Shown piece after piece: positions 7,075 to 38,200 of a stretch of DNA of 64,000 bases. Each line of letters starts with the position of its first letter. The stretch's first letter is position 1. The translations under genes and the position numbers were made by a program. Under the pieces are notes generated by a model. That model was not told the origin of the DNA. It ran no database searches and saw only the letters and a program-made list of their open reading frames with translations. The stretch lies in assembly GCA_017559905.1 (NCBI GenBank), contig JAFYQF010000023.1, forward strand, positions 1-64,000. The letters run 5' to 3'. Source of the stretch: a bacterium (lineage in GTDB: Bacteria > Cyanobacteriota > Vampirovibrionia > Gastranaerophilales > Gastranaerophilaceae).

Positions 7075-8361
7075 ATGAATTGTGTAAAATGTAATACAGA
7101 ATTAGAGATCTTAAAAATCAAGAGTGCAAATATTCCATATTGCAAATCTTGTAAAGGTATGTGGATTAAATTTCCATACCTACAAAAAATTGCAGAGCAA
7201 ATTGAATTAAAAACAGATATCGTAAACCCTGTTGATATGGAACCAATTAAACATAAAGAACCACCAAAAACTTGCCCTCAATGTGGACAAGCAATGGACA
7301 AAATTTACTTCAATGGTACCGTTGTCGATGTTTGTAAAACTTGTAATGGAATATGGTTTGATAATGGCGAACTTTCAAAATATTTCAGCCTATTTATGAA
7401 ACAATATCCACAAATAACAGATAATATAACTTTTTTGGACAAATATTGCGACCCTGACCTAAAAGAGAAACAAGCTATTATTAATCAAGAAATAGAAATC
7501 CAAAGCAAAGAAAGAGAAAGACGCGTAATTTCTTTTAACGGTTTTGTAGTTTTATTTTTGTTATTATTTTTTGGCTTAATAGGATTTGTTGCATCAGTAG
7601 CATTTTCACCAATACTAGTTATTTTAATACCAATATTTATATTATCACTTATGGGCTTTAAAGTAATAAAACCTCAAGAAGCAATGGTATTAACAGTTTT
7701 TGGCAAATACATCGGTACATTAAGAGGTGCTGGTTTTCATTGGGTTAACCCATTTGCGCAGAGTGTAACACCATTTATTCCCATATCATTGAAAGCAATG
7801 ACTCTAGACACAGGCAAACAAAAAATCAACGACGAACTAGGAAATCCTATAGAAGTAGGCATCATCGTAATTTGGGAAGTTCAAGATACTGCAAAAGCGA
7901 TATTTAATGTTGAAAATTACAAAACATTTATCGCAGCACAAAGTGATTCTGCCTTGAGAAACATCGTTAGAATGTACCCTTACGATGCGCCAGAAGACTC
8001 TGGAGTACAATCATTAAGAGGCGATAGCGCTGAAATTTCGCACAAACTTAAAACTGAAATTCAACGAAACGTAAGAGTTGCTGGTATTAACGTAGTTGAT
8101 GCAAAAATCACTCACCTTGCATACGCTCCAGAAATCGCAGTAGCAATGCTTCAAAGACAACAAGCCGCTGCGGTAATTGATGCTAAAAAAGCAATTGTTG
8201 ACGGTGCTGTTGGAATGGTTGAAATGGCGCTTAATCGTTTGAACGAAAACAATGTCGTTAAACTCGATGAAGTTGAAAAAGCTAAAATGGTGAACAACTT
8301 ACTCGTAACGCTTTGTAGCAACAAGGAAGCTCAACCAGTATTAAAAAACAATCTTAATTAA
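7075..8361 (+). CDS. SPFH/band-7 (stomatin/prohibitin-like) membrane protein with two N-terminal zinc-ribbon modules
   Basis: Two CxxC...CxxC pairs lie in the first 100 aa, followed by a TM segment and an SPFH-like region ('MVLTVFGKYIGTLRGAGFHWVNPF...'). An AGGAGG RBS precedes the ATG. Confidence 0.65.
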   Translation: MNCVKCNTELEILKIKSANIPYCKSCKGMWIKFPYLQKIAEQIELKTDIVNPVDMEPIKHKEPPKTCPQCGQAMDKIYFNGTVVDVCKTCNGIWFDNGELSKYFSLFMKQYPQITDNITFLDKYCDPDLKEKQAIINQEIEIQSKERERRVISFNGFVVLFLLLFFGLIGFVASVAFSPILVILIPIFILSLMGFKVIKPQEAMVLTVFGKYIGTLRGAGFHWVNPFAQSVTPFIPISLKAMTLDTGKQKINDELGNPIEVGIIVIWEVQDTAKAIFNVENYKTFIAAQSDSALRNIVRMYPYDAPEDSGVQSLRGDSAEISHKLKTEIQRNVRVAGINVVDAKITHLAYAPEIAVAMLQRQQAAAVIDAKKAIVDGAVGMVEMALNRLNENNVVKLDEVEKAKMVNNLLVTLCSNKEAQPVLKNNLN

Positions 8362-23667: not shown

Positions 23668-23739
23668 TCCTCAGTAGCTCAATGGCGGAGCAACCGGCTG
23701 TTAACCGGTAGGTTGTTGGTTCGAGTCCAACCTGGGGAG
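23668..23739 (+). tRNA. tRNA-Asn (anticodon GTT)
   Basis: Cloverleaf with acceptor TCCTCAG/CTGGGGA, anticodon stem ACCGG/CCGGT, loop CTGTTAA and T-loop TTCGAGT. CCA is not encoded. Confidence 0.85.
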
Positions 23740-25295
23740 TTTTTTAATGCAAAGTTTGCATAAGTGGTTTCAACCCCAGGTAGGACAGTCGTTTTCACGT
23801 TTCGATATTTAGAGTTTTTTTTTACTAATTCGAGTTGATTTTTTACTAAATCTTGGAAAAACGGTCGTAATTTTATGTCAAAATGCTTGTCTTTGTAAAG
23901 AATTGCTTCGGCAATTATATTAATTATTTTCTTACGCTGATGCATTGTCCCACGGATAAATAAATCATGTATGTTATCCAAGAAACCAAGCATAATCCCT
24001 GTATCATCATAAAACTGTTTTTCCAAGTCGTTAATTGTCTGAAGCTGTATCAAAAATCTTTCTTTTTCATCTTGCCATTTTTTATTAAACCTTACCCAAT
24101 CCTCATGGCTTATATTCCCATCAAGTTTTAATTCAATCGAGTTCTCAATACGATTTTCTAACTGCTCGATCTGTCTTTTAAGCGTTGCTTTCACCTCTTT
24201 TGTGTAGCCAAGTTTCTTTAGATGTTCTTCCCTTAAATCATCTGCGATAGTATCTCGCATCTCTTTAGGGATTACAATCAATTTAAGCACCTCTGCAAAG
24301 GCTCTATCAACCTTTTCTTCATTAATATAGTCTTGCTTACAAGTACCACCTTTATAGCCCGTACAATGGTAATAAACGTACCTGTAATTACCTTGTCTGT
24401 CTCTTTTGTTTTCTGCTGTAATTTGACAACCGCAATGCCCACAGTGCATTAAACCTGTATAAGCAAATTCCAAGTTATGTTTCTTTGATTTATTAGGGTC
24501 TCGTAACCTATCCTGAACCCTGTAAAATAAAGCTTTACTAATGATGGCTTTATGCTTACCATTATCATAGATCTTATTCATATACTTATAAGATCCAGTG
24601 TAGAATATGTTTTTGAGCATATACTCCACAGTACTACAAGGTATTGCTTTGCCATTTTGGTTTTTAAACCCATCTTCTTGCAATTTTTTAGTTAAAGTGT
24701 TTAGCGAATAAAGCCCACTGTCGTACAATTCAAATGCGCGCCTTACATATATGGCTCTATTTTCATCAATAACAATCGCTTTTGAACCATTAGGGTTTGT
24801 AACGTTAAGGTAACCTATTGGAGCAAGACTTGGATAATCACCTTGCTCTGCTTTTTGTTTTAGTGCAGCAACTGTTCTTGCAGCAATTACTTTTCTCTCG
24901 TACTCTGCAAAATTTATCCCAATGTTTCGCATCAAATCACCCTCTAAGGTATCTACATTGGCCTCTGTTGCAATAAGAAGTTGAATATCATTTTTGACAA
25001 ACAACGGCTTTAATATCCCGTGATAATCTGTATTACTTCTTGAAATTCTATCTAAACGCCAAACAACTACGGCTTTAACGTTGTTTTGTTTTTTCTTGCA
25101 ATAAGCGATTAAATCTTGAATATCCGGTCTTTCAAGATTCTTACCGGATTTACCATCATCTACAAAAATCTTGCTAACGTGATAACCATTCTTGCTCGCA
25201 AATTCAATGCAATCTTTCTTTTGCTTGTCAATACTCACACCAAGTTTGTTTCTGTCCTCGGCAGAAACACGTGCGTACACAACGGCTTTGTTCAT
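23679..25295 (-). CDS. Large serine recombinase (resolvase-N + recombinase + zinc-ribbon domains)
   Basis: The N-terminus 'VVYARVSAEDR...' has the serine-recombinase catalytic domain. A Cys cluster 'CGHCGC...YYHCTGYKGGTC' follows. The 3' ~20 codons overlap tRNA-Asn. Confidence 0.85.
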   Translation of the reverse strand: MNKAVVYARVSAEDRNKLGVSIDKQKKDCIEFASKNGYHVSKIFVDDGKSGKNLERPDIQDLIAYCKKKQNNVKAVVVWRLDRISRSNTDYHGILKPLFVKNDIQLLIATEANVDTLEGDLMRNIGINFAEYERKVIAARTVAALKQKAEQGDYPSLAPIGYLNVTNPNGSKAIVIDENRAIYVRRAFELYDSGLYSLNTLTKKLQEDGFKNQNGKAIPCSTVEYMLKNIFYTGSYKYMNKIYDNGKHKAIISKALFYRVQDRLRDPNKSKKHNLEFAYTGLMHCGHCGCQITAENKRDRQGNYRYVYYHCTGYKGGTCKQDYINEEKVDRAFAEVLKLIVIPKEMRDTIADDLREEHLKKLGYTKEVKATLKRQIEQLENRIENSIELKLDGNISHEDWVRFNKKWQDEKERFLIQLQTINDLEKQFYDDTGIMLGFLDNIHDLFIRGTMHQRKKIINIIAEAILYKDKHFDIKLRPFFQDLVKNQLELVKKNSKYRNVKTTVLPGVETTYANFALKNSPGWTRTNNLPVNSRLLRH

Positions 25296-26051: not shown

Positions 26052-26906
26052 ATGATTTATTTAAACACTTTTTCTTTCCCAACGCTTGAAGATGAAAACG
26101 ACTTCAGATTTTCACAGAATAGAACTTGTTATACAAGCATTTATCCATATGGGATTTTGTCAAAAAATACAATTGAAAAACTAGTTTTTGAACCAATTAC
26201 TATTTTATACGGTGGAAATGGTTGCGGCAAAAGCACGGCTTTAAATGTTATTGCTGAAAAATTAAAACTTGAAAGAGATAACCTATACAACAAAAGTAAT
26301 TTTTTTAATGATTACAAAAAACGTTGTAGATATGAAACAAATGGCATTCCCACTCATAGCAGAATAATAACTAGCGATGATGTTTTTGATTTTACGATGA
26401 ATTTGAGATATTTAAATGAAGGACTAGATAGACAAAGAGAAAATCTTTTAGACGAAGCTTACCGAAGAAAAACTTATCAATTCAAGATGAAAAGCTTAGA
26501 TGATTATGATGAATTTAAAAGAAACATGATTGCACAACAAAAATCTCAATCTGAATTTGTAAGACAATATATGCTACCAAATGTTAAAGAACAATCAAAT
26601 GGGGAAAGTGGATTCATGTATTTTACGAGTAAAATTCAAAATGATGCGCTCTACTTACTTGATGAACCTGAAAACAGTCTTTCTCCAGAAAAGCAAAAAG
26701 AATTGCTACAATTTATTTATGATAGTGCTAGATTTTACAATTGCCAATTTATTATAGCTACGCATTCTCCATTTTTGTTGTCGATAAAAGATGCAAAAAT
26801 TTACGACTTCGATGAAACACCCGTTAAAGTAAAGCCTTGGACAGAATTAAAAAATGTTAGAGAATATTATAACTTTTTCAAACTGCACGAAAAAGATTTT
26901 ATTTAA
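26052..26906 (+). CDS. Soluble ABC/AAA_21-like ATPase
   Basis: Walker A 'GGNGCGKST', signature-like 'SNGESG', Walker B 'LYLLDEPENSL' and H-loop 'IATHSP' are all present. No TM segments. Confidence 0.75.
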   Translation: MIYLNTFSFPTLEDENDFRFSQNRTCYTSIYPYGILSKNTIEKLVFEPITILYGGNGCGKSTALNVIAEKLKLERDNLYNKSNFFNDYKKRCRYETNGIPTHSRIITSDDVFDFTMNLRYLNEGLDRQRENLLDEAYRRKTYQFKMKSLDDYDEFKRNMIAQQKSQSEFVRQYMLPNVKEQSNGESGFMYFTSKIQNDALYLLDEPENSLSPEKQKELLQFIYDSARFYNCQFIIATHSPFLLSIKDAKIYDFDETPVKVKPWTELKNVREYYNFFKLHEKDFI

Positions 26907-26994
26907 TAATTAAGTAGAATAGTTGCAATTAACAACCTAAATAAAATTTCAATTTATACTATTATATATTTATTAGCAATAAGGAGTTATCGTT

Positions 26995-27861
26995 ATGACA
27001 AAAATAGAAATTCTAAATGGTGATATAACAAAGTTAAAAGTCGATGCGATAGTTAATGCTGCCAATAAAAGTTTATTAGGTGGCGGTGGTGTTGATGGAG
27101 CAATTCATCGTGCTGCTGGACATAAACTTTTAGAAGAGTGCCAAACTCTGAATGGATGTGAAACAGGACAATCTAAAATAACCAAAGGTTACAACTTACC
27201 TGCAAAATTCGTTATACACACAGTAGGACCTGTTTGGTACGGAGGGAATAAAAATGAACGAGAAATGCTTAAATCTTGTTATCATACAGCATTAACTCTT
27301 GCCAAAGAAAATGGAGTTAAAACAATTGCATTCCCTGCAATTTCTTGTGGCGTTTACCGTTTTCCATTAGAAGAAGCTTGTGCCATTGCAACTGAAACTG
27401 TAAAAGACTTCATTTCAAACGACGACAGCTTTGAGAAAATAATTTTTATAGATATTAACGAAGAAATTATTAATCTATATTTAGATTTAAGTGATATAAA
27501 TTCCAGATGTCAAAAATTACCAAAAATTAAACCACAAGATTTTAAATGGGGTGGAGGATTTAAAAACTCTAAAGAAGGTGAAACACCACAATTTCCTTAC
27601 GTAATTTATACTGAAAATGTTCTCGAATGGGTTCGATGTTATTATAAATTAGAGTTAATAATGCCAAATTACGTTGAATACGTAAACAATGCAGATTTTC
27701 GAAATAAAAAATTCAAAAATTATTCAAGAAATGATATTCTAAATTTGCTAACATACTATATTCGCCAAGATAGATTTTGCGAAGGTCTGTTGGCTGGCAA
27801 AATCAAATCCGGTGAAGTAACTGAACTCGTTGACAGATTGCACGAAATAACAAAGGGATAG
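26995..27861 (+). CDS. Macro-domain (ADP-ribose-binding/processing) protein with ~115-aa C-terminal extension of unknown function
   Basis: '[27 protein letters not shown]' is the canonical macro signature, preceded by an AAGGAG RBS. The C-terminal region is unassigned. Confidence 0.8.
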
Positions 27862-27874
27862 GTGAACTTATGTA

Positions 27875-28240
27875 GAGAATATTTCTTTTCGGAAGTATTT
27901 ATTGTATAATTGTTTATGGCAGAATCGATAAGAACGATGAGCTATAGTTTCTTTTCGGAAGTATTTATTGTATAATCTAAAATGGTGTAGTATTCCATAG
28001 AACCGTGCTATAGTTTCTTTTCGGAAGTATTTATTGTATAATTAAGGCTGAATAGTGCTGAAGTCCATTACAGCTATAGTTTCTTTTCGGAAGTATTTAT
28101 TGTATAATCGCAAGTGAATTCACCGGTGACGCAAAACGGCTATAGTTTCTTTTCGAAAGTATTTATTGTATAATTAGAATTACATTACTGTTAAGAAAGG
28201 AGGCGCTATAGTTTCTTTTCGAAAGTATTTATTGTATAAT
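27875..28240 (+). CRISPR. CRISPR array: 6 x 36-bp repeats (GCTATAGTTTCTTTTCGGAAGTATTTATTGTATAAT), 5 x 30-bp spacers
   Basis: Repeats lie at 27875 (5'-degenerate), 27941, 28007, 28073, 28139 and 28205. Spacers are exactly 30 bp. Repeats 5-6 carry a G18A variant, and each repeat ends in TGTATAAT. Confidence 0.95.
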
Positions 28241-28286
28241 ACCAATCTTCCAAACCCAAAAGGCACAAGGGGATTGGTATTTTTTA
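28241..28286 (+). terminator. Hairpin plus T-run after last repeat (possible pre-crRNA terminator)
   Basis: accaatc...gattggt stem followed by ATTTTTTATT. Confidence 0.35.
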
Positions 28287-28325
28287 TTCAAAAAAATTAA
28301 AACAAAAGAAGTTGTTCTGCTCCTA

Positions 28326-28490
28326 TTAATAATTAGAAATATGAATTTGTGGATTTTCTAAAATGATTGTTCCAATATCTTCCATTGGAATTGTAACTTC
28401 GTCATCAGAATCGAGAGCTTGGTGTACAAGCTGTCGATTCTTGATATGAAGTTTGCAAGGATTTGAAAATAGTAAAGTTTTATAACTCAT
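28326..28490 (-). pseudogene. cas1: cas1 remnant (N-terminal 54 codons only)
   Basis: The translation 'MSYKTLLFSNPCKLHIKNRQLVHQALDSDDEVTIPMEDIGTIILENPQIHISNY*' resembles type II Cas1 N-termini (SpCas1 '...SKLSYKNNHLIF...EIDILLLETTDIVLTT'). Its ATG overlaps the cas9 stop in ATGA. The remaining ~250 codons and cas2 are absent. Confidence 0.6.
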
Positions 28491-31400
28491 TTATTTTTAA
28501 CCTTTTTTGTGTTCTTAAATTTTATATCTTGTCGTTTTTCTTTTTTTACTTCATGATAATTTCCTAATACATCAATTTGGTATTTTTTGAATGAATAAAC
28601 ACTTTTTACTGCAATTCTAATTATTTCCTTTTTCTTTGCTCCATCTTGTTCTATTACTGTAATACGAGCAGAATCAATATCAGTACTTTTGTAGTAATAA
28701 TATTTTATACTTTCTTCTTTTTCATCCTTATTTATTGAAATTAAGGTGTCTTTAAACAATGAAAATTTAAATTTATAGCTTTCATCCATTTCTAACCAAC
28801 CATCTTTACCATTAGATATAGCTTTATTCGGCAAAATTCCTTTTGCAAAGTCTGAAACATAGATTGGCACAAGATAAAATTCTTCTTTACCTTTTTTATT
28901 CTTTTTAGAAAACACGTCTACCCTTGGCATTGAATCATTATTGGCAAATCCATTATGAACTAATATGCCTGAAGTACCTTTTGATTTTATTTTTATTGTT
29001 TTAATTTCGTGAGGTTTTATTCCCGCTTGTTTTTTTACTTCTGACAATGGCATATAAACAGGCTCAGCAAAAGCTTTTTCTGGTTTATTATCAAACTGCT
29101 CTAGCCTTTCTTTTAAGAGGTTGTATACTACAATGTTTCTTTCTTTTTCGTGCATATCTTCCAATTTTTTTAAATCAATTTTTTGTATTGGTGTCTTTAA
29201 TGTTGTAAATCCTTCATCAAGATGTTTAGGACTACGAATGGTAGCTTCGTGTATACCGCCTGGAATTTTGTTCCTTGGAGCTCTTGATACGAAGATTTCA
29301 CCAATAGAATTTTCTAAATCTTCACTAAATGTTCCCCAAGGTTTTTTAAAACGAGGTTTCATATGGTTTATAAAATCATAGTTTTCACGTTGAGCAGATA
29401 TTGTCGATAAGAATTTAACCATACCTTTTGTCGAACAAGCTACAATTGTCGCATCAACTGCGTGATGCCTGTCATTTTCTTCTCTATCTTTATTTATACC
29501 CCATTGGTTTCTTAAAAACGCGGTAAGTGAGCCGTTTCTTGTCTCTACTTTTATATCAAGATTCGCTTGGATATAGTCTTTAATAAACACCGTTATGTAC
29601 CTTGTATCATTCAGATTTCTTGAAGAAAAGCCGTCGCTATCATCTTTAGAATAAGATTTTCTAATCAAACGATTTATTTTTGGCGATTTCAGGTTTAATG
29701 TTTTTATCCAAGCACAGTATTCTGTCCAATCAACTTTTGAGCCAAAATATTCGTAAGGGATTTTATTACCTTTCATTCTATTTTGGTCAGCTAAGCATAA
29801 TACTTTGTTGTTTAAACTATCATCGTAACATCTTGAGTAAGGAATTATGTGGTCTATATCGGTATAATTCTCATCACTTAATCGTCTTATATCAATAGCT
29901 TTTCTTGAATATGGACAAAAGCCTCCCTGTTCTTCCCAAAGTCTAAATCGTAATAAGTTATTTTTCGAATCTGGATTTACACCATGTTTAAAGCATCTTT
30001 GGCGGGCAAACTCTTTTTCTTTTCTAAAGTCTTCTTGACCGGATTTTATCTTATTACGTTCTTCAGCTGATTTACCTAAATCTCTTGCTGTCTCTATAAT
30101 AATCTTGTCAAATTTACCATATTCTCTTATAAGTGCATTTACTACTTTTCTAGTTTGAGAAATTGCTCGGTTAACAACAGGGTTTGTTGTTAGTTCACTT
30201 TGATCCAAAACTGGTAAATATTCTTTATTTTTTGAAACAATTGCATTTTTAAAATCATACCCAGCTTCAGCACAAGCTTCGTTATATTTTAAACCTTGTA
30301 ACATATAAGGTGTAATTTTTTGCATAGCTTTAATTGATAAATGCATAACTTTGCTAGCAGATAAATCTTTTATGCAATCTATAATTTCTTGTGCAATATC
30401 TTTATCTAATAATCGCTTTGTAATTGCTTCATCAGATTTTTCATAGGTTAGTGCAGTTGCAATTTCATTAAATAAAAGTTCTTTATTATTAAGATTGTCA
30501 AAATACTCATTACCGAATACTTTTATAATAGCTTTTTTAATCTCGTGGTATTTTTTTAATTCAATTAATGTTGCATCTTCTGGATTAATTTCCACCAATT
30601 CTCCCGTTTTTTTATCTTTAGTTTTTTTACCATACTGTAGCGTCTTATAACATATACTCTCTACAAGTCCTAATTCTTTACGAGCTTGTTTATAAGTAAG
30701 TTTTGCTTTTTGATGTGCAATATTAATTAAATCTTGAATTTGCTTTGGTGCCAAATCGACGGAAGTCCCGTCTTCTAAAATCAATTTAGTATTAACAAGT
30801 TTTTGTGTCGCAACAAAAATTTCTGCAGTATATGATGCTTTTGGAGCTCTTTTTTCGTCTTTTTCAAATTGGCAATTCCCAACCATGTTTTCCATTGACT
30901 GCAAAGGTCTTTGATAAAATGAGATTTTCATATATTCTTCTTCAAAATCTTTATTCGCAAATTCAGAGCCGAAACTTCTTTGTTTTTCAAATATGGTTTT
31001 TATTTCTTGTTCTAATAAATCTCTTGGTATTGAATTTTTATAATCGTCTCTTTTGTTTCTTTTGGCACTATGTTCATATATAGTTGCAAACATTTCACCA
31101 ACAGTTTGAAAATTGCCACCTTCAAACTGTTGCTTATTTTCACTTATACATTTTAATAAATTACCCTCAGTCTTTGCTTCTTCACTCTTTCTAATTGATT
31201 TAAACCCTCTGCGTTTTGCAATTTGATGAAGTACTCTATAAAATTCTTCTATTGTTAATTCCCTTGATAAAGCCTCTTTTCTTAAAATCCAAGTATCAAT
31301 TCTTTTTGTATTGTTATGAAAAAGATTTGAAATATCATTCTCTGATAAATATTTATTAGCAATAAATAACTGTTTTATTGCTCTTAACCTATAAGCTCGT

Positions 31401-31594
31401 CTTGATAAACGGCGTCTAGCACCCCGAAAAATCCTACGTTCAGCATTTAAAGGAGCTTTAGTTTTAGCTACTTCGCAAGCTTCAAAAGTTCTAACACCAG
31501 TTTTTAAAATTTCACCATTAAAATTTTCGTCATCATAATTTATTACAGAAAAACCTATTGATGCAATACCAATATCAAGACCTAAAATTTTCAT
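28487..31594 (-). CDS. cas9: Cas9 (type II-C-sized, 1035 aa), nuclease-competent
   Basis: Present are RuvC-I 'ILGLDIGIASIGFSV', an Arg-rich bridge helix, RuvC-II 'IIIETARD', HNH 'DIDHIIPYS...NNKVLC...NRMKGNK' and RuvC-III 'HHAVDATIV'. Confidence 0.95.
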   Translation of the reverse strand: MKILGLDIGIASIGFSVINYDDENFNGEILKTGVRTFEACEVAKTKAPLNAERRIFRGARRRLSRRAYRLRAIKQLFIANKYLSENDISNLFHNNTKRIDTWILRKEALSRELTIEEFYRVLHQIAKRRGFKSIRKSEEAKTEGNLLKCISENKQQFEGGNFQTVGEMFATIYEHSAKRNKRDDYKNSIPRDLLEQEIKTIFEKQRSFGSEFANKDFEEEYMKISFYQRPLQSMENMVGNCQFEKDEKRAPKASYTAEIFVATQKLVNTKLILEDGTSVDLAPKQIQDLINIAHQKAKLTYKQARKELGLVESICYKTLQYGKKTKDKKTGELVEINPEDATLIELKKYHEIKKAIIKVFGNEYFDNLNNKELLFNEIATALTYEKSDEAITKRLLDKDIAQEIIDCIKDLSASKVMHLSIKAMQKITPYMLQGLKYNEACAEAGYDFKNAIVSKNKEYLPVLDQSELTTNPVVNRAISQTRKVVNALIREYGKFDKIIIETARDLGKSAEERNKIKSGQEDFRKEKEFARQRCFKHGVNPDSKNNLLRFRLWEEQGGFCPYSRKAIDIRRLSDENYTDIDHIIPYSRCYDDSLNNKVLCLADQNRMKGNKIPYEYFGSKVDWTEYCAWIKTLNLKSPKINRLIRKSYSKDDSDGFSSRNLNDTRYITVFIKDYIQANLDIKVETRNGSLTAFLRNQWGINKDREENDRHHAVDATIVACSTKGMVKFLSTISAQRENYDFINHMKPRFKKPWGTFSEDLENSIGEIFVSRAPRNKIPGGIHEATIRSPKHLDEGFTTLKTPIQKIDLKKLEDMHEKERNIVVYNLLKERLEQFDNKPEKAFAEPVYMPLSEVKKQAGIKPHEIKTIKIKSKGTSGILVHNGFANNDSMPRVDVFSKKNKKGKEEFYLVPIYVSDFAKGILPNKAISNGKDGWLEMDESYKFKFSLFKDTLISINKDEKEESIKYYYYKSTDIDSARITVIEQDGAKKKEIIRIAVKSVYSFKKYQIDVLGNYHEVKKEKRQDIKFKNTKKVKNK

Positions 31595-31619
31595 ATATCA
31601 CTCCTTAAATATTTTATTA

Positions 31620-31648
31620 TTGACAGTCTAAACTTTGTTTGTTATCAT
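31620..31648 (+). promoter_or_regulatory. Sigma-70 promoter of tracrRNA (TTGACA-17bp-TATCAT)
   Basis: The -35 is at 31620-31625 and the -10 at 31643-31648. The anti-repeat begins ~4-8 nt downstream. Confidence 0.55.
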
Positions 31649-31651
31649 ACG

Positions 31652-31745
31652 ATTGTACAATAAATACTTTCGAAACGTTACTATAGTAAGAAGTTTTCGA
31701 AAAGTTTCTAGCAGATACATTTTAATATGTATCTGCTATCTTTTA
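31652..31745 (+). ncRNA. tracrRNA
   Basis: The anti-repeat at 31652-31690 can pair with 33 of 36 repeat positions (including G-U pairs) with a 3-nt internal mismatch. A palindromic TTTTCGAAAA hairpin follows. The terminator is agcagataca-ttttaata-tgtatctgct followed by ATCTTTT. Confidence 0.75.
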
Positions 31746-31747
31746 GT

Positions 31748-32143
31748 TTATTTTTCATTATTTTCTTTTGCAAAATTTGCAGTATCTTGAATTAATTTTA
31801 TAGCCTTATTACTATCGTGCATTTCTTGCCCATACAAAACAATGTTATCTTCAAAATAATTCCCGTGCAGTTCAATTACATTTTTTGAACCTGCTTTTGT
31901 ATGTAAATTATCGACATTCATTGTAATAATTGGAATATCTAATTCTGCAAGGATTTTGTGTGCCTTTGTTGGTTCTCGGTCTTTAACGTTATTTATAAGC
32001 AAATCAATTGCGTCTTTAAACTCTTTTGGATATTGTTCTTTAAATTCAACGGACAATTTTTCTTTAATTCCAGGTATTTCCTCAAATGTTGGAATACCAG
32101 CTGATTTTGAAATTCCTGCACCTGTAAAAGCTATTATTTTCAT
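31748..32143 (-). CDS. Mini Sir2-like protein (131 aa)
   Basis: 'GAGISKSAGIPTF', 'ITMNVDNLHTKAG' and 'IELHGN' match the sirtuin NAD-binding and catalytic-His core. The Zn-ribbon module and C-terminal half are missing. An AGGAGG RBS is present. Confidence 0.65.
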   Translation of the reverse strand: MKIIAFTGAGISKSAGIPTFEEIPGIKEKLSVEFKEQYPKEFKDAIDLLINNVKDREPTKAHKILAELDIPIITMNVDNLHTKAGSKNVIELHGNYFEDNIVLYGQEMHDSNKAIKLIQDTANFAKENNEK

Positions 32144-32237: not shown

Positions 32238-32400
32238 TGATATTATAGGTTCGTAAATAACCTATAAAGAGTGTACGAGGGACAAGCCCGTTGACTACAC
32301 AGCAACCCTTTAAGTTGGGTGCTAATGCTTGAATGATAGGTCAAAACTTTAAGTCGGAAACCTATCACTATGGGTTTCTTTTTTGTTGCTCTTATAGGTT
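32238..32400 (+). ncRNA. Candidate structured RNA / 5' leader with intrinsic terminator
   Basis: Hairpin ataggtt-cgtaaat-aacctat is present. Long-range complement aacctataaagag/ctcttataggtt and an internal gataggt/acctatc pair also occur. A terminator-like gaaacc-N10-ggtttc followed by TTTTTT sits 50 nt before the ATG at 32433. Confidence 0.25.
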
Positions 32401-32432: not shown

Positions 32433-32750
32433 ATGGAACAACAAAAGAAGTATCAAGTTGATTTGTACATTGGATTATTAGCCCCCGATGATTTTATGCA
32501 ACATTTTACCGTTAAAAAAGCAGTTGACACAATAACAGAAGTCATTGGAGATTGCACAATTATACCTTGTATTGGTTCTTGTTCACATACGACAGGTATA
32601 AGAATAAATTTAAACACTTTAAAAATAACAAAATTTATTGATTATGCACCAGAACAATTGATAAACAAAGTCGAAAAACTAAAGAAAATCTTTAATCAAT
32701 ATGAAATTCTTATGAATACCATAAAATGTGATAATTTTAGAATTATTTAA
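32433..32750 (+). CDS. Hypothetical protein (105 aa)
   Basis: ORF with an AAAGGAG RBS and no recognisable motif. Confidence 0.45.
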   Translation: MEQQKKYQVDLYIGLLAPDDFMQHFTVKKAVDTITEVIGDCTIIPCIGSCSHTTGIRINLNTLKITKFIDYAPEQLINKVEKLKKIFNQYEILMNTIKCDNFRII

Positions 32751-32952: not shown

Positions 32953-33167
32953 TATTCTTCCTCATCAGAGTATTCGTAGTTTGCCCATTTTTCACGTTGT
33001 AAGGCTTTCTTGTCATATTTAGTTTCTTCGGGTTCATCCCAAACTAACTCGTACATATTAGCCATTTCTTGCTCTTTGGCTTTACGATTTCTATCGTCAT
33101 CACTTCCAAACAATAAATCAAATAATCCCATTAGAGGTCCTTTCGTTATACTTAGATTATAAACCAA
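32952..33167 (-). CDS. Small acidic hypothetical protein (71 aa, or ~59 aa from the internal Met)
   Basis: '...MGLFDLLFGSDDDRNRKAKEQEMANMYELVWDEPEE...SDEEE'. Very D/E-rich. Confidence 0.4.
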   Translation of the reverse strand: MVYNLSITKGPLMGLFDLLFGSDDDRNRKAKEQEMANMYELVWDEPEETKYDKKALQREKWANYEYSDEEE

Positions 33168-33217
33168 ATATATGTCAAAAATGGACGCAGAGTTTTCTAA
33201 ATTAAAAATAACACCAA

Positions 33218-33832
33218 TTAGAATTTACTTGCTTTCGCACGTGCTTGCAATTCTGCTATTAATTCTTCGGTTGAAAATTCACTTAAACCAGGACTTGTAT
33301 TTTCAAACATATTGCATATAACTTCCGAATACACATCCGGACGCATATTGGCATACTGTTCTAAGATAGTTTCAACTTCCCAATGCCCAATATTTTGGCT
33401 TAGTGCTTTCAATTCTTTACCTGTATGAGCTTTTTCTAAGCCTTTACTTACCATGTAATGTCTAAACGAATGAGGATTATAATCCTTTATGCCAGCTTGC
33501 CTACACATCTTTTTGATGATCTCATTATATTTCGTATTGCTATAATTTTTGTTAACCAATTGAACACCAGATGCATAATTCTTTATCTGTGGGAATAAAA
33601 GGATTTTATTTCCCGAAATATTAGATTTAACATATTCGACCCATTCTTTCAGATACTGCAAATACATTTTATCCAAAACCATAAATCTTGTATAAATTAG
33701 TTTGTCTAATTTTGTGTGAGTATCTTCTAAAGGATCCTGTTTTACCATCAACTTTTGAAAGTCAATCAAATTTATTGTAATAGTCGCAACAGCATCAATT
33801 CTTGCAGCTGTTAACAACATATACGAAATCAA
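33218..33832 (-). pseudogene. Tyrosine recombinase/integrase, N-terminally truncated (catalytic domain only)
   Basis: Box I 'LLTAARIDAV', 'HSFRHYMVS' and 'GHWEVETILEQYANM' cover the R..HxxR..Y catalytic residues. The N-terminal core-binding domain is absent and the fragment abuts a Fic fragment on the opposite strand. Confidence 0.7.
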
Positions 33833-34454: not shown

Positions 34455-34685
34455 CGTTGTAATGACGTAAATTCCTCAACCTATAGAGTATATTTTTTGT
34501 TTTGTATACTTTATATAATTCCTTATGCAAAATTATTCCTTCTTTACAGTATCCATCATTCATACATTCATCTATGTCCATATAACGTTCAAAATTTTTA
34601 CAAAATTCGAACAAAAATATATTGAACAAATTATGTCCGTATTTGACAGATATATAGGTTATTATTTTTCTAAAAGGAGAAATTT

Positions 34686-35781: not shown

Positions 35782-35874
35782 ATTAAAACCTCATTGTACA
35801 TTTTACATTATTAATATAAGCCACCCCTATGACAAATACGGACGCAACAAACAATACCTCAACCTATAAACATA

Positions 35875-36032
35875 AAAAATCATCTACTCGCTTAATCATC
35901 CATAGTATTTCTTGCATACTTGGTTCAAAAAATCTTTTGTATAAAGTTTCAATGAATGCTTCCCAACTCTCGCAGGATGGGGAGTTTTTTAATGTCAAAT
36001 TTAAAGCGAGGTTTGTCCTCGCTTTTTGTTAC
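35875..36032 (+). repeat. Direct repeat copy A (~160 bp, ~92% identical to copy B); contains att-like core and a terminator hairpin
   Basis: Aligns base-for-base with 38044-38200. It includes gcgagg...cctcgc followed by TTTTT. Confidence 0.8.
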
Positions 36033-37659: not shown

Positions 37660-38046
37660 ATGAACAAGCAAGAACAACTTATAAAATTTGGAATAGCGTT
37701 AAAAAATAGACGTCAAGCGCTTAACTTGAGTCTTAGAGATGTTGAGAAAATATCTAATATTAGTGCTGCATTAATCACCAAACTTGAAAACGGTAAGATG
37801 GCAAATTTTCCTAAAGCATTAACTATTAAACAACTTAGCGATGCTTTAAAATTTGATAACGAATTATTTCTTCTTGCAGATATTTTAAATGAATCCCCAC
37901 AAGTTGCAAAATCCGAAAAAACTTTTGAAGAAGAATTTAGAGAATTTTTAGCAACAAAAACCACCCTAAATGCTGAAAATATTGAACAAACCTTATATTT
38001 TGTATCAGGATTAGAAAAATTACAACAAATAAAGAATATTAATTAA
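37660..38046 (+). CDS. XRE-family helix-turn-helix transcriptional regulator
   Basis: 'LKNRRQALNLSLRDVEKISNISAALITKLENGK' is a classic HTH_XRE. Confidence 0.7.
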   Translation: MNKQEQLIKFGIALKNRRQALNLSLRDVEKISNISAALITKLENGKMANFPKALTIKQLSDALKFDNELFLLADILNESPQVAKSEKTFEEEFREFLATKTTLNAENIEQTLYFVSGLEKLQQIKNIN

Positions 38047-38200
38047 AAATCATCTATACGCTTAATCATCCAAAGTATGTCTTGCATACTTGGTTCAAAA
38101 AATCTTTTGTACAAGGTTTCAATGAATGCTTCCCAACTCTCGCAGGAGATGGAGTTTTTTATTGTCAAAATTAAAGCGAGGTTTGTCCTCGCTTTTGTTT
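38044..38200 (+). repeat. Direct repeat copy B
   Basis: See copy A. The core here reads GATGGAGTTTTTTATTG (degenerate). Confidence 0.8.

What the first reader, a model, noticed from the sequence alone, without database searches (positions are those of the whole stretch)
31620..31745. tracrRNA with its own TTGACA-17-TATCAT promoter; repeat variant G18A in repeats 5-6 converts a G-U into an A-U pair with the anti-repeat
The anti-repeat (31652-31690) pairs with 33 of 36 repeat positions, leaving a 3-nt internal mismatch in the lower stem. A palindromic TTTTCGAAAA hairpin follows. A 10-bp perfect-stem terminator comes next and is shared with the convergent mini-Sir2 gene.

The two cas9-proximal repeats carry cgAaagt instead of cgGaagt. 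At that position the tracrRNA base is U, so the variant strengthens pairing.
Basis: seen in the sequence. Interest (0 to 1): 0.55.

Follow-up and report, generated by a model that had tools for sequence, protein, structure and literature searches.

The report
Type II-C Cas9 tracrRNA gene

Summary
Window 31620-31745 (+) carries TTGACA-17-TGnTATCAT, then a 36-nt anti-repeat (31652-31687). The anti-repeat pairs with 33/36 positions of the repeats at 27875-28240 (-38 kcal/mol, z = -13). A 12-bp terminator hairpin follows.

Thirteen related loci (Cas9 56-99% identical; the named one is a Gastranaerophilales MAG) have the same unit at the same place. The -35 is invariant. Seven repeat:anti-repeat pairs and seven of ten terminator pairs show compensatory changes. 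A model built from relatives alone finds only this site (91 bits, E 5e-14).

The duplex geometry (G1·U, 7 pairs, mismatches at 9-10, C11:G) matches published NmeCas9 and GeoCas9 guides. It is a new member of the known type II-C tracrRNA kind.

Corrections:
- A18 is the commonest state across the family's loci, and the tracr U is invariant. G·U to A-U is worth about 0.5 kcal/mol.
- The TTTTCGAAAA "hairpin" has no thermodynamic or covariation support.
- The "mini-Sir2" is a truncated fragment.
- The hairpin is terminator-like only on the tracr strand.

Side findings: cas1-cas2 are deleted here and, with different breakpoints, in a 98%-identical relative. The cas9 promoter must overlap the tracr gene.

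The parts
31620..31625 (+). tracrRNA promoter -35 (TTGACA)
   Evidence: TTGAC is invariant in all 14 loci aligned.
31640..31648 (+). tracrRNA extended -10 (TGtTATCAT)
   Evidence: The -10 is TATAAT or TATTAT in most relatives, at the same distance from the anti-repeat.
31655..31655 (+). Predicted transcription start (a purine 7 nt after the -10)
   Evidence: Inference. A purine stands immediately before TACAAUA in all 14 loci. Repeat complementarity fades upstream of it in most relatives. The model match starts here.
31652..31687 (+). Anti-repeat. The transcribed part is probably 31655-31687.
   Evidence: It pairs 33/36 with the repeat, z = -13. Seven pairs are compensatory across loci, with 0/500 shuffles reaching this.
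31687..31709 (+). Conserved linker UAAG-AAGUUUUCGAAAAGUUUCU (nexus-like; contains the TTTTCGAAAA palindrome)
   Evidence: Sequence is conserved in 14 loci. There is no covariation and it is not in the consensus fold. UAAG also follows the anti-repeat in Nme and Geo guides.
31709..31745 (+). Rho-independent terminator of the tracrRNA (12-bp stem, 6-nt loop, UCUUUU tail)
   Evidence: Seven of 10 pairs show compensatory changes across relatives. Fold z = -5.4.
27875..28240 (+). CRISPR array: six 36-nt repeats and five 30-nt spacers. Repeat 1 is degenerate in its 5' 8 nt. Repeats 5-6 carry A18.
28241..28289 (+). Hairpin plus U-tract directly after the last repeat (terminator in crRNA sense)
   Evidence: A hairpin followed by a T-run stands at this position in 12 of the 13 loci folded (the stem arms are not fully complementary in L083), with different stem sequences. 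This supports + strand transcription of the array.
28487..31594 (-). cas9 (1035 aa, type II-C)
   Evidence: Pfam HNH_4, RuvC_III and Cas9_RuvC. Best solved relatives are Nme1Cas9 6jdq (E 2e-186) and GeoCas9. Catalytic residues are invariant in the clade.
28326..28490 (-). cas1 remnant (codons 1-54 plus stop)
   Evidence: The translation aligns with the N-terminus of Cas1 from L001 and L084.
28297..28326 (-). Last ~10 codons of cas2 (remnant)
   Evidence: Matches ...IGAEQLLLF* of relatives. About 1 kb is deleted between the cas1 and cas2 remnants.
31748..32143 (-). Truncated Sir2-family ORF (a neighbour, not part of the system)
   Evidence: Pfam SIR2 profile positions 1-115 of 180. It aligns to residues 17-122 of the 246-aa Sir2Tm. 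The ORF stops at the homology border with L002.

Best explanation
Window 31620-31745 (+) is the tracrRNA gene of a type II-C CRISPR-Cas9 locus of the Nme/Geo Cas9 clade. The host is probably a Gastranaerophilales (Melainabacteria) gut bacterium.

Proposed mechanism, with shown and inferred steps marked:
- A sigma-70-type promoter starts a roughly 90-nt RNA near G31655 (inferred).
- Its 5' 33 nt pair with the 5' part of each CRISPR repeat transcribed from the + strand, that is, convergently with cas9 as in N. meningitidis and C. jejuni. Pairing and covariation are shown. Transcription is inferred.
- The duplex has the II-C signature: G1·U, seven Watson-Crick pairs, an internal loop at repeat positions 9-10/12, then a long upper stem. 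Cas9 would recognise this together with the conserved UAAG...UUCGAAAAGUUCU linker and the 3' terminator hairpin (inferred by homology with solved Nme and Geo complexes).
- crRNAs probably start inside the spacers from the invariant TATAAT at each repeat's 3' end, or are cut from a longer transcript by RNase III (inferred).

The G18/A18 repeat polymorphism sits opposite an invariant U in the upper stem and is functionally near-neutral.
For: - Pairing is 33/36, -38 kcal/mol, z = -13, and the site is unique in the window.
- It lies directly upstream of, and divergent from, an intact II-C cas9.
- The same unit stands at the same position in 13 relatives with Cas9 56-99% identical. The -35 TTGAC is invariant and the -10 is conserved.
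- Repeat and anti-repeat co-vary: 94.9% of cells paired against 35-48% when slid, 7 pairs compensatory, 0/500 shuffles.
- The terminator hairpin keeps its structure with at least six different stem sequences; 7/10 pairs are compensatory.
- A covariance model built without the window or its near-twin finds 31655-31747 (+) at 91.1 bits, E 4.6e-14, and nothing else except the repeats themselves at E >= 0.5.
- Strand assignment is supported by a terminator-like hairpin after the last repeat on the + strand, seen in 12 of 13 loci.
- Strand assignment is also supported by the identical duplex geometry and shared CGUUrCUAyrrUAAG block in validated Nme and Geo guides.
Against: - There are no expression data of any kind.
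- The promoter match by itself is no better than chance in this AT-rich window.
- No Rfam family matches even at E <= 10.
- The locus has lost cas1-cas2.
- None of the five spacers matches a known phage, plasmid, viral contig or the window itself, so current activity of the system is unproven.
- The repeat's TATAAT lacks the canonical TGn spacing of the Nme and Cje extended -10.
Confidence: 0.9

Rival explanations
1. The repeat-like segment is mainly the 5' leader of the cas9 mRNA, read on the - strand. The complement of the anti-repeat keeps the repeat-embedded -10 (TACAAT, 31657-31652 on the - strand) and drives cas9. The + strand RNA would then be secondary, or the two overlapping promoters would compete. 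This could coexist with a real tracrRNA.
For: - The cas9 RBS (31602-31607) lies only 12 nt from the tracr -35, so the cas9 promoter must lie inside or beyond the tracr gene.
- The A four nt upstream of TACAAU (31652) is conserved in 13/14 loci. It lies upstream of the predicted tracr start and its neighbours vary freely, which fits T6 of a - strand TAnnnT.
- The repeats carry an invariant TATAAT at the homologous place.
Against: - No -35 element and no canonical TGn.
- AT-rich DNA gives many -10-like hexamers.
- Nine of 13 relatives carry another conserved promoter-like motif farther upstream, also pointing at cas9.
- This reading does not remove the need for a + strand tracrRNA, which Cas9 requires.
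Confidence: 0.3
2. The A18 variant in the two cas9-proximal repeats is an adaptive change that improves tracrRNA pairing or RNase III processing of the newest guides.
For: - G·U becomes A-U opposite U31670.
- The variant sits in the two repeats next to the leader-like end, where new repeats are templated. This is inferred from the degenerate repeat at the other end.
Against: - The free-energy difference is about -0.5 kcal/mol in a -38 kcal/mol duplex.
- A18 is simply the commonest state across the family's loci. G18 paired with the same U is the only state seen in L087 (11/11) and occurs in 2 of the 21 full repeats of L001.
- With cas1-cas2 deleted, the array can no longer propagate the variant.
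Confidence: 0.07
3. The segment is a decaying solo repeat, or a relic of a dead locus, and is no longer expressed or used.
For: - cas1-cas2 are deleted.
- The array is short and its spacers have no known targets.
- In the window the conserved motif upstream of the tracr terminator (cas9 sense) is cut by the Sir2 fragment.
Against: - cas9 is intact with all catalytic residues, here and in the 98%-identical L002.
- The tracr promoter, anti-repeat, linker and terminator are all intact and score 91 bits against the family model.
- Differences from L002 within the tracr keep function: the -10 TATCAT against TATTAT, and a G·U where L002 has A-U.
Confidence: 0.08

Closest known systems
Neisseria meningitidis type II-C tracrRNA / NmeCas9 guide
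   Same: - Cas9 is the closest solved relative (6jdq, E 2e-186).
- Same duplex geometry: G1·U, 7 pairs, mismatches at 9-10, C11:G, another mismatch, then a long upper stem.
- Shared CGUUrCUAyrAUAAG block.
- The array is read opposite to the cas operon, with a -10 hexamer at the repeat's 3' end (PMC3737331, PMC5965381).
   Different: - The tail here is much shorter and AU-rich: about 57 nt after the anti-repeat, with one clear hairpin.
- The gene lies divergently, immediately upstream of cas9, with its -35 only 25 nt from the cas9 start codon.
- The repeat -10 is TTG-TATAAT, not TGn-TACAAT.
- cas1-cas2 are deleted here.
Geobacillus stearothermophilus GeoCas9 tracrRNA / sgRNA
   Same: The repeat start (GUCAUAGUU against GCUAUAGUU) and the tracr block GUUACUAUGAUAAG against GUUACUAUAGUAAG are nearly identical. 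The first-pair wobble and the 9-10 mismatch are the same.
   Different: The Geo tail is long and GC-rich with several hairpins. Upper-stem sequences are unrelated.
Campylobacter coli clade 3 cas9-only type II-C loci
   Same: A type II-C cas9 with an array but without cas1 and cas2, and so presumably unable to acquire spacers (PMC4607530).
   Different: Here remnants of cas1 and cas2 remain. Two near-identical strains carry different deletions, so the loss is recent and recurrent.
Streptococcus pyogenes tracrRNA (type II-A)
   Same: Same role and the same position upstream of cas9 on the opposite strand (PMC5965381).
   Different: No sequence similarity and no Rfam hit. The bulge geometry differs. 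The II-A array is read in the same direction as cas9 from a leader promoter.

Membership tests
tracrRNA (type II CRISPR trans-activating RNA) | An anti-repeat complementary to the repeats of the associated array | tested here: met
   33/36 pairs, -38 kcal/mol, z = -13, and unique in the window.
tracrRNA (type II CRISPR trans-activating RNA) | Encoded within a cas9 locus | tested here: met
   It starts 26 nt upstream of the cas9 start codon, on the opposite strand.
tracrRNA (type II CRISPR trans-activating RNA) | Its own transcription unit (promoter and intrinsic terminator) on the strand complementary to the crRNA | tested here: met
   for the sites. The -35 is invariant and the -10 conserved in 14 loci. 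The terminator helix covaries. The array-end terminator-like hairpin fixes the crRNA strand. All of this is in silico.
tracrRNA (type II CRISPR trans-activating RNA) | Anti-repeat co-evolves with the repeat in related loci | tested here: met
   Seven pairs have changes on both sides, 94.9% of cells are paired, and 0/500 shuffles reach this.
tracrRNA (type II CRISPR trans-activating RNA) | Expressed, bound by Cas9, and required for crRNA maturation and DNA cleavage | not testable with these tools
   No transcriptome or biochemistry is available.
tracrRNA (type II CRISPR trans-activating RNA) | Match to a curated Rfam RNA family | tested here: not met
   No relevant hit at gathering score or at E <= 10. 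tracrRNAs are known to lack sequence conservation between clades (PMC3737331), so this carries little weight.
Type II-C CRISPR-Cas9 (Nme/Geo clade) | A compact II-C Cas9 | tested here: met
   1035 aa. The best PDB matches are Nme1/Nme2 and GeoCas9.
Type II-C CRISPR-Cas9 (Nme/Geo clade) | A cas9-cas1-cas2 operon without csn2 or cas4 | tested here: not met
   Relatives have cas9-cas1-cas2. The window keeps only cas1 codons 1-54 and about 10 codons of cas2. It is a degraded II-C locus.
Type II-C CRISPR-Cas9 (Nme/Geo clade) | Repeat:anti-repeat duplex geometry of Nme/Geo guides | tested here: met
   The pairing strings are identical over positions 1-11 in the window, Nme and Geo (using the sequences).
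Type II-C CRISPR-Cas9 (Nme/Geo clade) | Array transcribed opposite to cas9 | tested here: met
   The anti-repeat strand, a + strand terminator-like hairpin after the last repeat in 12 of 13 loci, and the degenerate repeat at the crRNA-sense 5' end, as reported for Nme and Cje. In silico only.
Type II-C CRISPR-Cas9 (Nme/Geo clade) | Promoter embedded in each repeat (extended -10) | tested here: inconclusive
   A perfect TATAAT ends every repeat. It is invariant in 12 loci even where the tracrRNA does not pair with it. However, the TG abuts the hexamer rather than following the TGn pattern, and no 5' ends are known.

The most novel reading that the evidence does not exclude
The tracrRNA gene doubles as the control region of cas9. 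In this reading the complement of the anti-repeat keeps the repeat-embedded -10 (TAnnnT, 31657-31652 on the - strand, conserved in 13/14 loci). From there, or from the conserved TTGACr-N11-TAnAAT motif beyond the terminator in relatives, it launches the cas9 mRNA. The tracrRNA and cas9 promoters would then overlap head-on and exclude each other, and in relatives the cas9 5'UTR would be antisense to the whole tracrRNA. This would couple Cas9 and tracrRNA dosage. It could also help explain why the cas9-tracr-array core persists after recurrent loss of cas1-cas2.
Probability: 0.2. Interest if true: 0.5.

Novelty: new member of a known kind. Interest (0 to 1): 0.2.

Why it matters
It gives a well-supported guide-RNA scaffold for a compact, uncharacterised Cas9 lineage. 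The tracrRNA is about 90 nt, and its boundaries and essential duplex geometry are defined by 14 loci. The lineage is 1035 aa, comes from gut Melainabacteria, and its repeat and tracr sequences appear in no paper that could be searched. That is practically useful for sgRNA design.

Biologically it adds little. The architecture is that of N. meningitidis-type II-C systems, and the repeat polymorphism is near-neutral.

Two points are mildly interesting. cas1-cas2 have been lost independently in two 98%-identical strains that both keep cas9, the tracrRNA gene and at least the leader-proximal repeat intact. Also, the layout is so tight that the cas9 promoter is forced to overlap the tracr gene.

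Tried and rejected
- Rfam, at gathering score on the whole window and at E <= 10 on 31500-31850: no tracrRNA-like family.
- The TTTTCGAAAA hairpin: not in the minimum-energy fold of the tail and not in the RNAalifold consensus.
- An extended AGAA:UUCU stem: natural variants GCUCU, GUGCU and GUACU are uncompensated.
- Intramolecular pairing of the anti-repeat UUUCGAAA with the downstream UUUCGAAA: 94% compatible but 0/7 compensatory pairs, so it is unproven.
- Promoter significance from the consensus match alone: rejected, 5 observed against 4.8 expected.
- Spacer targets: BLAST of the array against phage and plasmid records found nothing better than a 27/30 match at E 0.9. Five exact 24-mer scans of viral contigs found nothing. 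There are no matches with up to 6 mismatches in the window or the 90 loci held. No PAM could therefore be inferred.
- Literature: no paper holds this repeat or tracr sequence, and none deals with a Melainabacteria Cas9.
- The idea that the cas9 module inserted into a Sir2 gene: rejected. The window and L002 share both flanks (31751-28464 and 33863-32254) and differ only in a cassette between them.
- The genome-contig scan gave only one relative. Most relatives came from the protein search and contig look-ups.

Full report
**What is at the coordinates**

Window 31620-31750 (+) reads TTGACA-gtctaaactttgtttgt-TATCAT-acg-ATTGTACAATAAATACTTTCGAAACGTTACTATAGT-AAGAAGTTTTCGAAAAGTTTC-TAGCAGATACAT-TTTAAT-ATGTATCTGCTA-TCTTTTAG.

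The consensus scan ranks TTGACA-17-TATCAT, with TG before the -10, as the best promoter-like site in 27.5-32.5 kb (11/12). It also reports a 12-bp stem, 6-nt loop and T-rich tail at 31709-31738 on the + strand only.

The CRISPR array is at 27875-28240 and has six 36-nt repeats with 30-nt spacers. Repeat 1 is degenerate in its first 8 nt. Repeats 5 and 6 have A where repeats 1-4 have G at position 18.

cas9 (1035 aa) lies at 28487-31594 on the - strand. It has HNH and RuvC domains, and its closest solved relatives are Nme1/Nme2Cas9 and GeoCas9 at E about 1e-186 to 1e-180.

**Is the pairing real?**

- The 36 nt at 31652-31687 pair with the + strand repeat at 33 of 36 positions. That is 30 Watson-Crick pairs plus 3 G·U for G18 repeats, and 31 plus 2 for A18 repeats.
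- The mismatches are at repeat positions 9, 10 and 12.
- Duplex energy is -38.1 or -38.6 kcal/mol, against -8.0 +/- 2.3 for 1000 dinucleotide shuffles (z about -13).
- The next-best partner outside the array anywhere in the window pairs at 29/36.

The G18-to-A18 gain is about 0.5 kcal/mol.

**Is the promoter real?**

The match alone is not evidence. 11/12 matches occur 5 times in the window, against 4.8 +/- 2.3 in composition-preserving shuffles. The evidence is conservation across related loci, described next.

**Related loci**

- The genome scan found one relative, a Candidatus Gastranaerophilales MAG (L001, Cas9 71% identical).
- The protein search found a clade of about 46 clusters at 49-99% identity.
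- Contig look-ups and the metagenome scan supplied the others. In total 13 loci carry a recognisable homologue of the segment at the same place, divergent from and immediately upstream of cas9.

In the 14-sequence alignment, TTGAC of the -35 is invariant and the -10 is TATAAT-like at a fixed distance. TACAATA, GTTACTA.A.TAAG and the ATCT after the terminator are invariant or nearly so.

A purine stands 7 nt after the -10 in most loci, directly before TACAAUA. Complementarity to the repeat is lost upstream of it in most loci. The RNA therefore probably starts at G31655 and is about 90 nt long.

**Covariation**

I joined each locus's consensus repeat to its own anti-repeat.
- 94.9% of cells pair, against 35-48% when the partner is slid by 1-3 columns.
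- Seven pairs change on both sides: positions 2, 4, 13, 17, 21, 22 and 24.
- None of 500 shuffles reaches any of the five measures.

The terminator hairpin keeps its structure with at least six unrelated stem sequences, and 7 of 10 pairs are compensatory.

A covariance model was built from 12 relatives only, excluding the window and its near-twin L002. It hits window 31655-31747 (+) at 91.1 bits, E 4.6e-14. The next hits are the antisense of the CRISPR repeats at E >= 0.5.

**Strand**

Complementarity alone cannot tell the strand. Four things do.
1. The conserved promoter and terminator lie on the + strand.
2. In 12 of the 13 loci folded, a hairpin plus T-run follows the last repeat directly on the crRNA-sense strand, with different stem sequences from locus to locus. 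In the remaining locus, L083, the corresponding arms are not fully complementary.
3. The + strand repeat (GCUAUAGUUUCC...) is homologous to the Nme (GUUGUAGCUCCC...) and Geo (GUCAUAGUUCCCC...) repeats.
4. The degenerate repeat lies at the crRNA-sense 5' end. This is exactly the anomaly reported for N. meningitidis and C. jejuni, whose arrays are transcribed opposite to the cas operon (PMC3737331).

**Comparison with validated guides**

I used the NmeCas9 sgRNA printed in PMC9674691 and the GeoCas9 sgRNA in PMC12514136. The pairing strings are:
- `:|||||||xx|xx|||...` for Nme
- `:|||||||xx|x||||...` for the window
- `:|||||||xx||||||` for Geo

All three show the G1·U wobble, seven Watson-Crick pairs, two mismatches at positions 9-10 and C11:G. 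The tracr block CGUU(A/G)CUA..(A/G)UAAG is shared.

The "3-nt mismatch" is therefore the conserved internal loop of this guide family. It is present in all 12 loci whose repeats are known.

**The G18/A18 polymorphism**

The tracr base opposite position 18 is U in every locus. The repeat base is distributed as follows.
- A is the predominant or only base in 10 of the 12 loci with known repeats.
- G is the only base seen in L087 (11 of 11 repeats).
- G is also found in 2 of the 21 full repeats of L001 and in 4 of 6 repeats in the window.

In L001 the two G18 repeats also carry T22, as in the window. There they make two wobbles with a tracrRNA that complements the A18/C22 majority exactly.

Within the window's own array the change was probably G to A. 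The A18 repeats lie at the cas-proximal, leader-like end and the degenerate repeat at the other end. At the family level, however, A is the commonest state across loci. Both states are evidently tolerated, and the energy difference is trivial. I read it as a near-neutral polymorphism.

**The linker**

TTTTCGAAAA exists at 31694-31703.
- As a hairpin it could form only 3 A-U pairs.
- It is absent from the minimum-energy fold of the tail and from the alignment consensus.
- An extended version (GAAGUUUU/AAAGUUUC) folds in some members. Natural variation on its 3' side (GCUCU, GUGCU, GUACU) is not compensated.
- In the free RNA the anti-repeat's UUUCGAAA can pair with the identical palindrome downstream. 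Across loci this helix is compatible but has 0 of 7 compensatory pairs.

The element is conserved as sequence. It most likely serves as a Cas9 contact equivalent to the nexus or stem-loop 1 region, but that is inference.

**The neighbours**

The 131-aa ORF at 31748-32143 (-) matches only the first 115 of 180 positions of Pfam SIR2 and residues 17-122 of the 246-aa Sir2Tm.

The window and L002 (Cas9 99% identical) are 98.3% identical over 31751-28464 and 98.2% identical over 33863-32254. Between these blocks the window has the Sir2 fragment, while L002 has a resolvase and a ParB_N gene. The Sir2 stop codon (31748-31750) lies in the last bases of the shared block.

The ORF is therefore a truncated remnant at a recombination boundary. 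The hairpin belongs to the tracr unit and not to Sir2. On the - strand it does not meet the terminator criteria.

**Loss of adaptation genes**

All 11 relatives whose contig extends past the 3' end of cas9, other than L002, have cas1 and cas2 directly downstream.

Mapped on the intact L084:
- The window lacks about 7270-8300. It keeps cas1 codons 1-54 and the last ~10 codons of cas2.
- L002 lacks about 7130-8134. It keeps cas1 codons 1-8 and cas2 from about codon 49.

Each keeps sequence that the other has lost, so these are two independent deletions in 98%-identical lineages. Both retain an intact cas9, the tracr gene and at least the leader-proximal repeat. Cas9-only II-C loci are known in C. 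coli (PMC4607530).

The five spacers have no match in phage or plasmid records, in viral contigs or in the window itself.

**Where is the cas9 promoter?**

The cas9 RBS (31602-31607) lies 12 nt from the tracr -35, so the promoter must overlap the tracr gene or lie beyond it. There are two candidates.

(a) The complement of the anti-repeat start is TACAAT (31657-31652). This is homologous to the TATAAT that ends every repeat. The A at 31652 is conserved in 13 of 14 loci, although it lies upstream of the predicted tracr start and its neighbours vary.

(b) In 9 of 13 relatives a conserved motif...CCGTATTTGACr-N11-TAnAAT, sits just beyond the tracr terminator and points at cas9. The window loses its upstream half at the 31751 boundary. 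The same motif occurs three times elsewhere in the window, with 0 expected by chance.

Neither candidate could be tested here.

**Verdict**

The finding is a real tracrRNA gene, supported about as well as sequence analysis allows. It is a new member of the known type II-C, Nme/Geo-like kind. Neither the repeat nor the tracr sequence occurs in any searchable paper. Interest is low to moderate.

Noticed in passing
window 28297-28490 (-); L002 11105-11290: cas1-cas2 are deleted in the window and, with different breakpoints, in the 98%-identical L002. Each retains sequence the other has lost, so the loss of the adaptation module is independent and recurrent, while cas9, the tracr gene and at least the leader-proximal repeat stay intact.
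   Followed up: yes
window 28241-28289 (+); the same position in 12 relatives: A hairpin plus T-run stands directly after the cas-proximal repeat, in crRNA sense, in 12 of 13 loci, with stem sequences that differ between loci (the arms are not fully complementary in L083). It would stop transcripts from the last repeat running antisense into cas2, cas1 and cas9.
   Followed up: partly
window repeats, positions 31-36 of each (e.g. 27971-27976): Every repeat ends in a perfect TATAAT. The last 13 nt (TTTATTGTATAAT) are invariant in all 12 related arrays even where the tracrRNA does not pair with them. This fits repeat-embedded promoters as in N. meningitidis and C. jejuni, although the TG abuts the hexamer instead of following the TGn pattern.
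   Followed up: partly
L001, L004, L083-L086, L088, L090 and L002, just beyond the tracr terminator; window 33156-33184 (-), 34637-34665 (+), 35813-35841 (-): A conserved motif ~CCGTATTTGACr-N11-TAnAAT with a fixed 11-nt spacing, too short for a -35/-10 pair. In relatives it points at cas9 through the antisense of the tracr gene. At the cas9 locus the window has lost its upstream half, but three copies lie in the integrase-rich region (0 expected by chance).
   Followed up: partly
window 31652 and 31652-31657 (-): The A four nt upstream of TACAAU is conserved in 13/14 loci although it precedes the predicted tracr start. On the cas9 strand it would be T6 of a TAnnnT -10 homologous to the repeat's TATAAT.
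   Followed up: partly
window 31668-31675 and 31695-31702 (+): The anti-repeat and the downstream linker both contain the palindrome UUUCGAAA and can pair with each other in the free tracrRNA. The linker mimics positions 13-20 of the A18 repeat. The pairing is compatible across loci but shows no compensatory change.
   Followed up: partly
window 32259-32342 (+), terminator-like hairpin 32356-32379, ORF 32433-32750: A SAM (S-box) riboswitch (Rfam 54.6 bits), followed by a terminator-like hairpin and a 105-aa ORF with no Pfam match. The block is shared at 98% with L002 and at 85% with L084.
   Followed up: no
window 31748-32143 (-): A Sir2-family ORF truncated to the N-terminal half of the domain. 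It also appears to lack the zinc module between ELHG and VLYGQ. It ends at the boundary of homology with L002.
   Followed up: partly
window 26052-27861 (+): An AAA_21/AAA_15 ATPase (284 aa) and a Macro-DUF6508 protein (288 aa) lie directly upstream of the array on the crRNA strand. The Macro gene stops 13 nt before the degenerate first repeat, so read-through into the array is possible. These look like defence-island genes.
   Followed up: no
window 23668-25295 and 33218-33832: The 3' end of a large serine recombinase (538 aa) overlaps a tRNA gene (23668-23739). An integrase fragment lies at 33218-33832. L002 has a full 365-aa integrase in the homologous block. These suggest mobile-element borders around the CRISPR region.
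   Followed up: no
window 35872-36026 and 38042-38196: A 155-nt direct repeat, 92% identical, with copies 2170 nt apart.
   Followed up: no
L001 9294-9395: Two internal repeats of the L001 array carry G18/T22, identical in their last 24 nt to the window's main repeat, within an otherwise A18/C22 array. This hints at exchange of repeat-spacer units between arrays.
   Followed up: no
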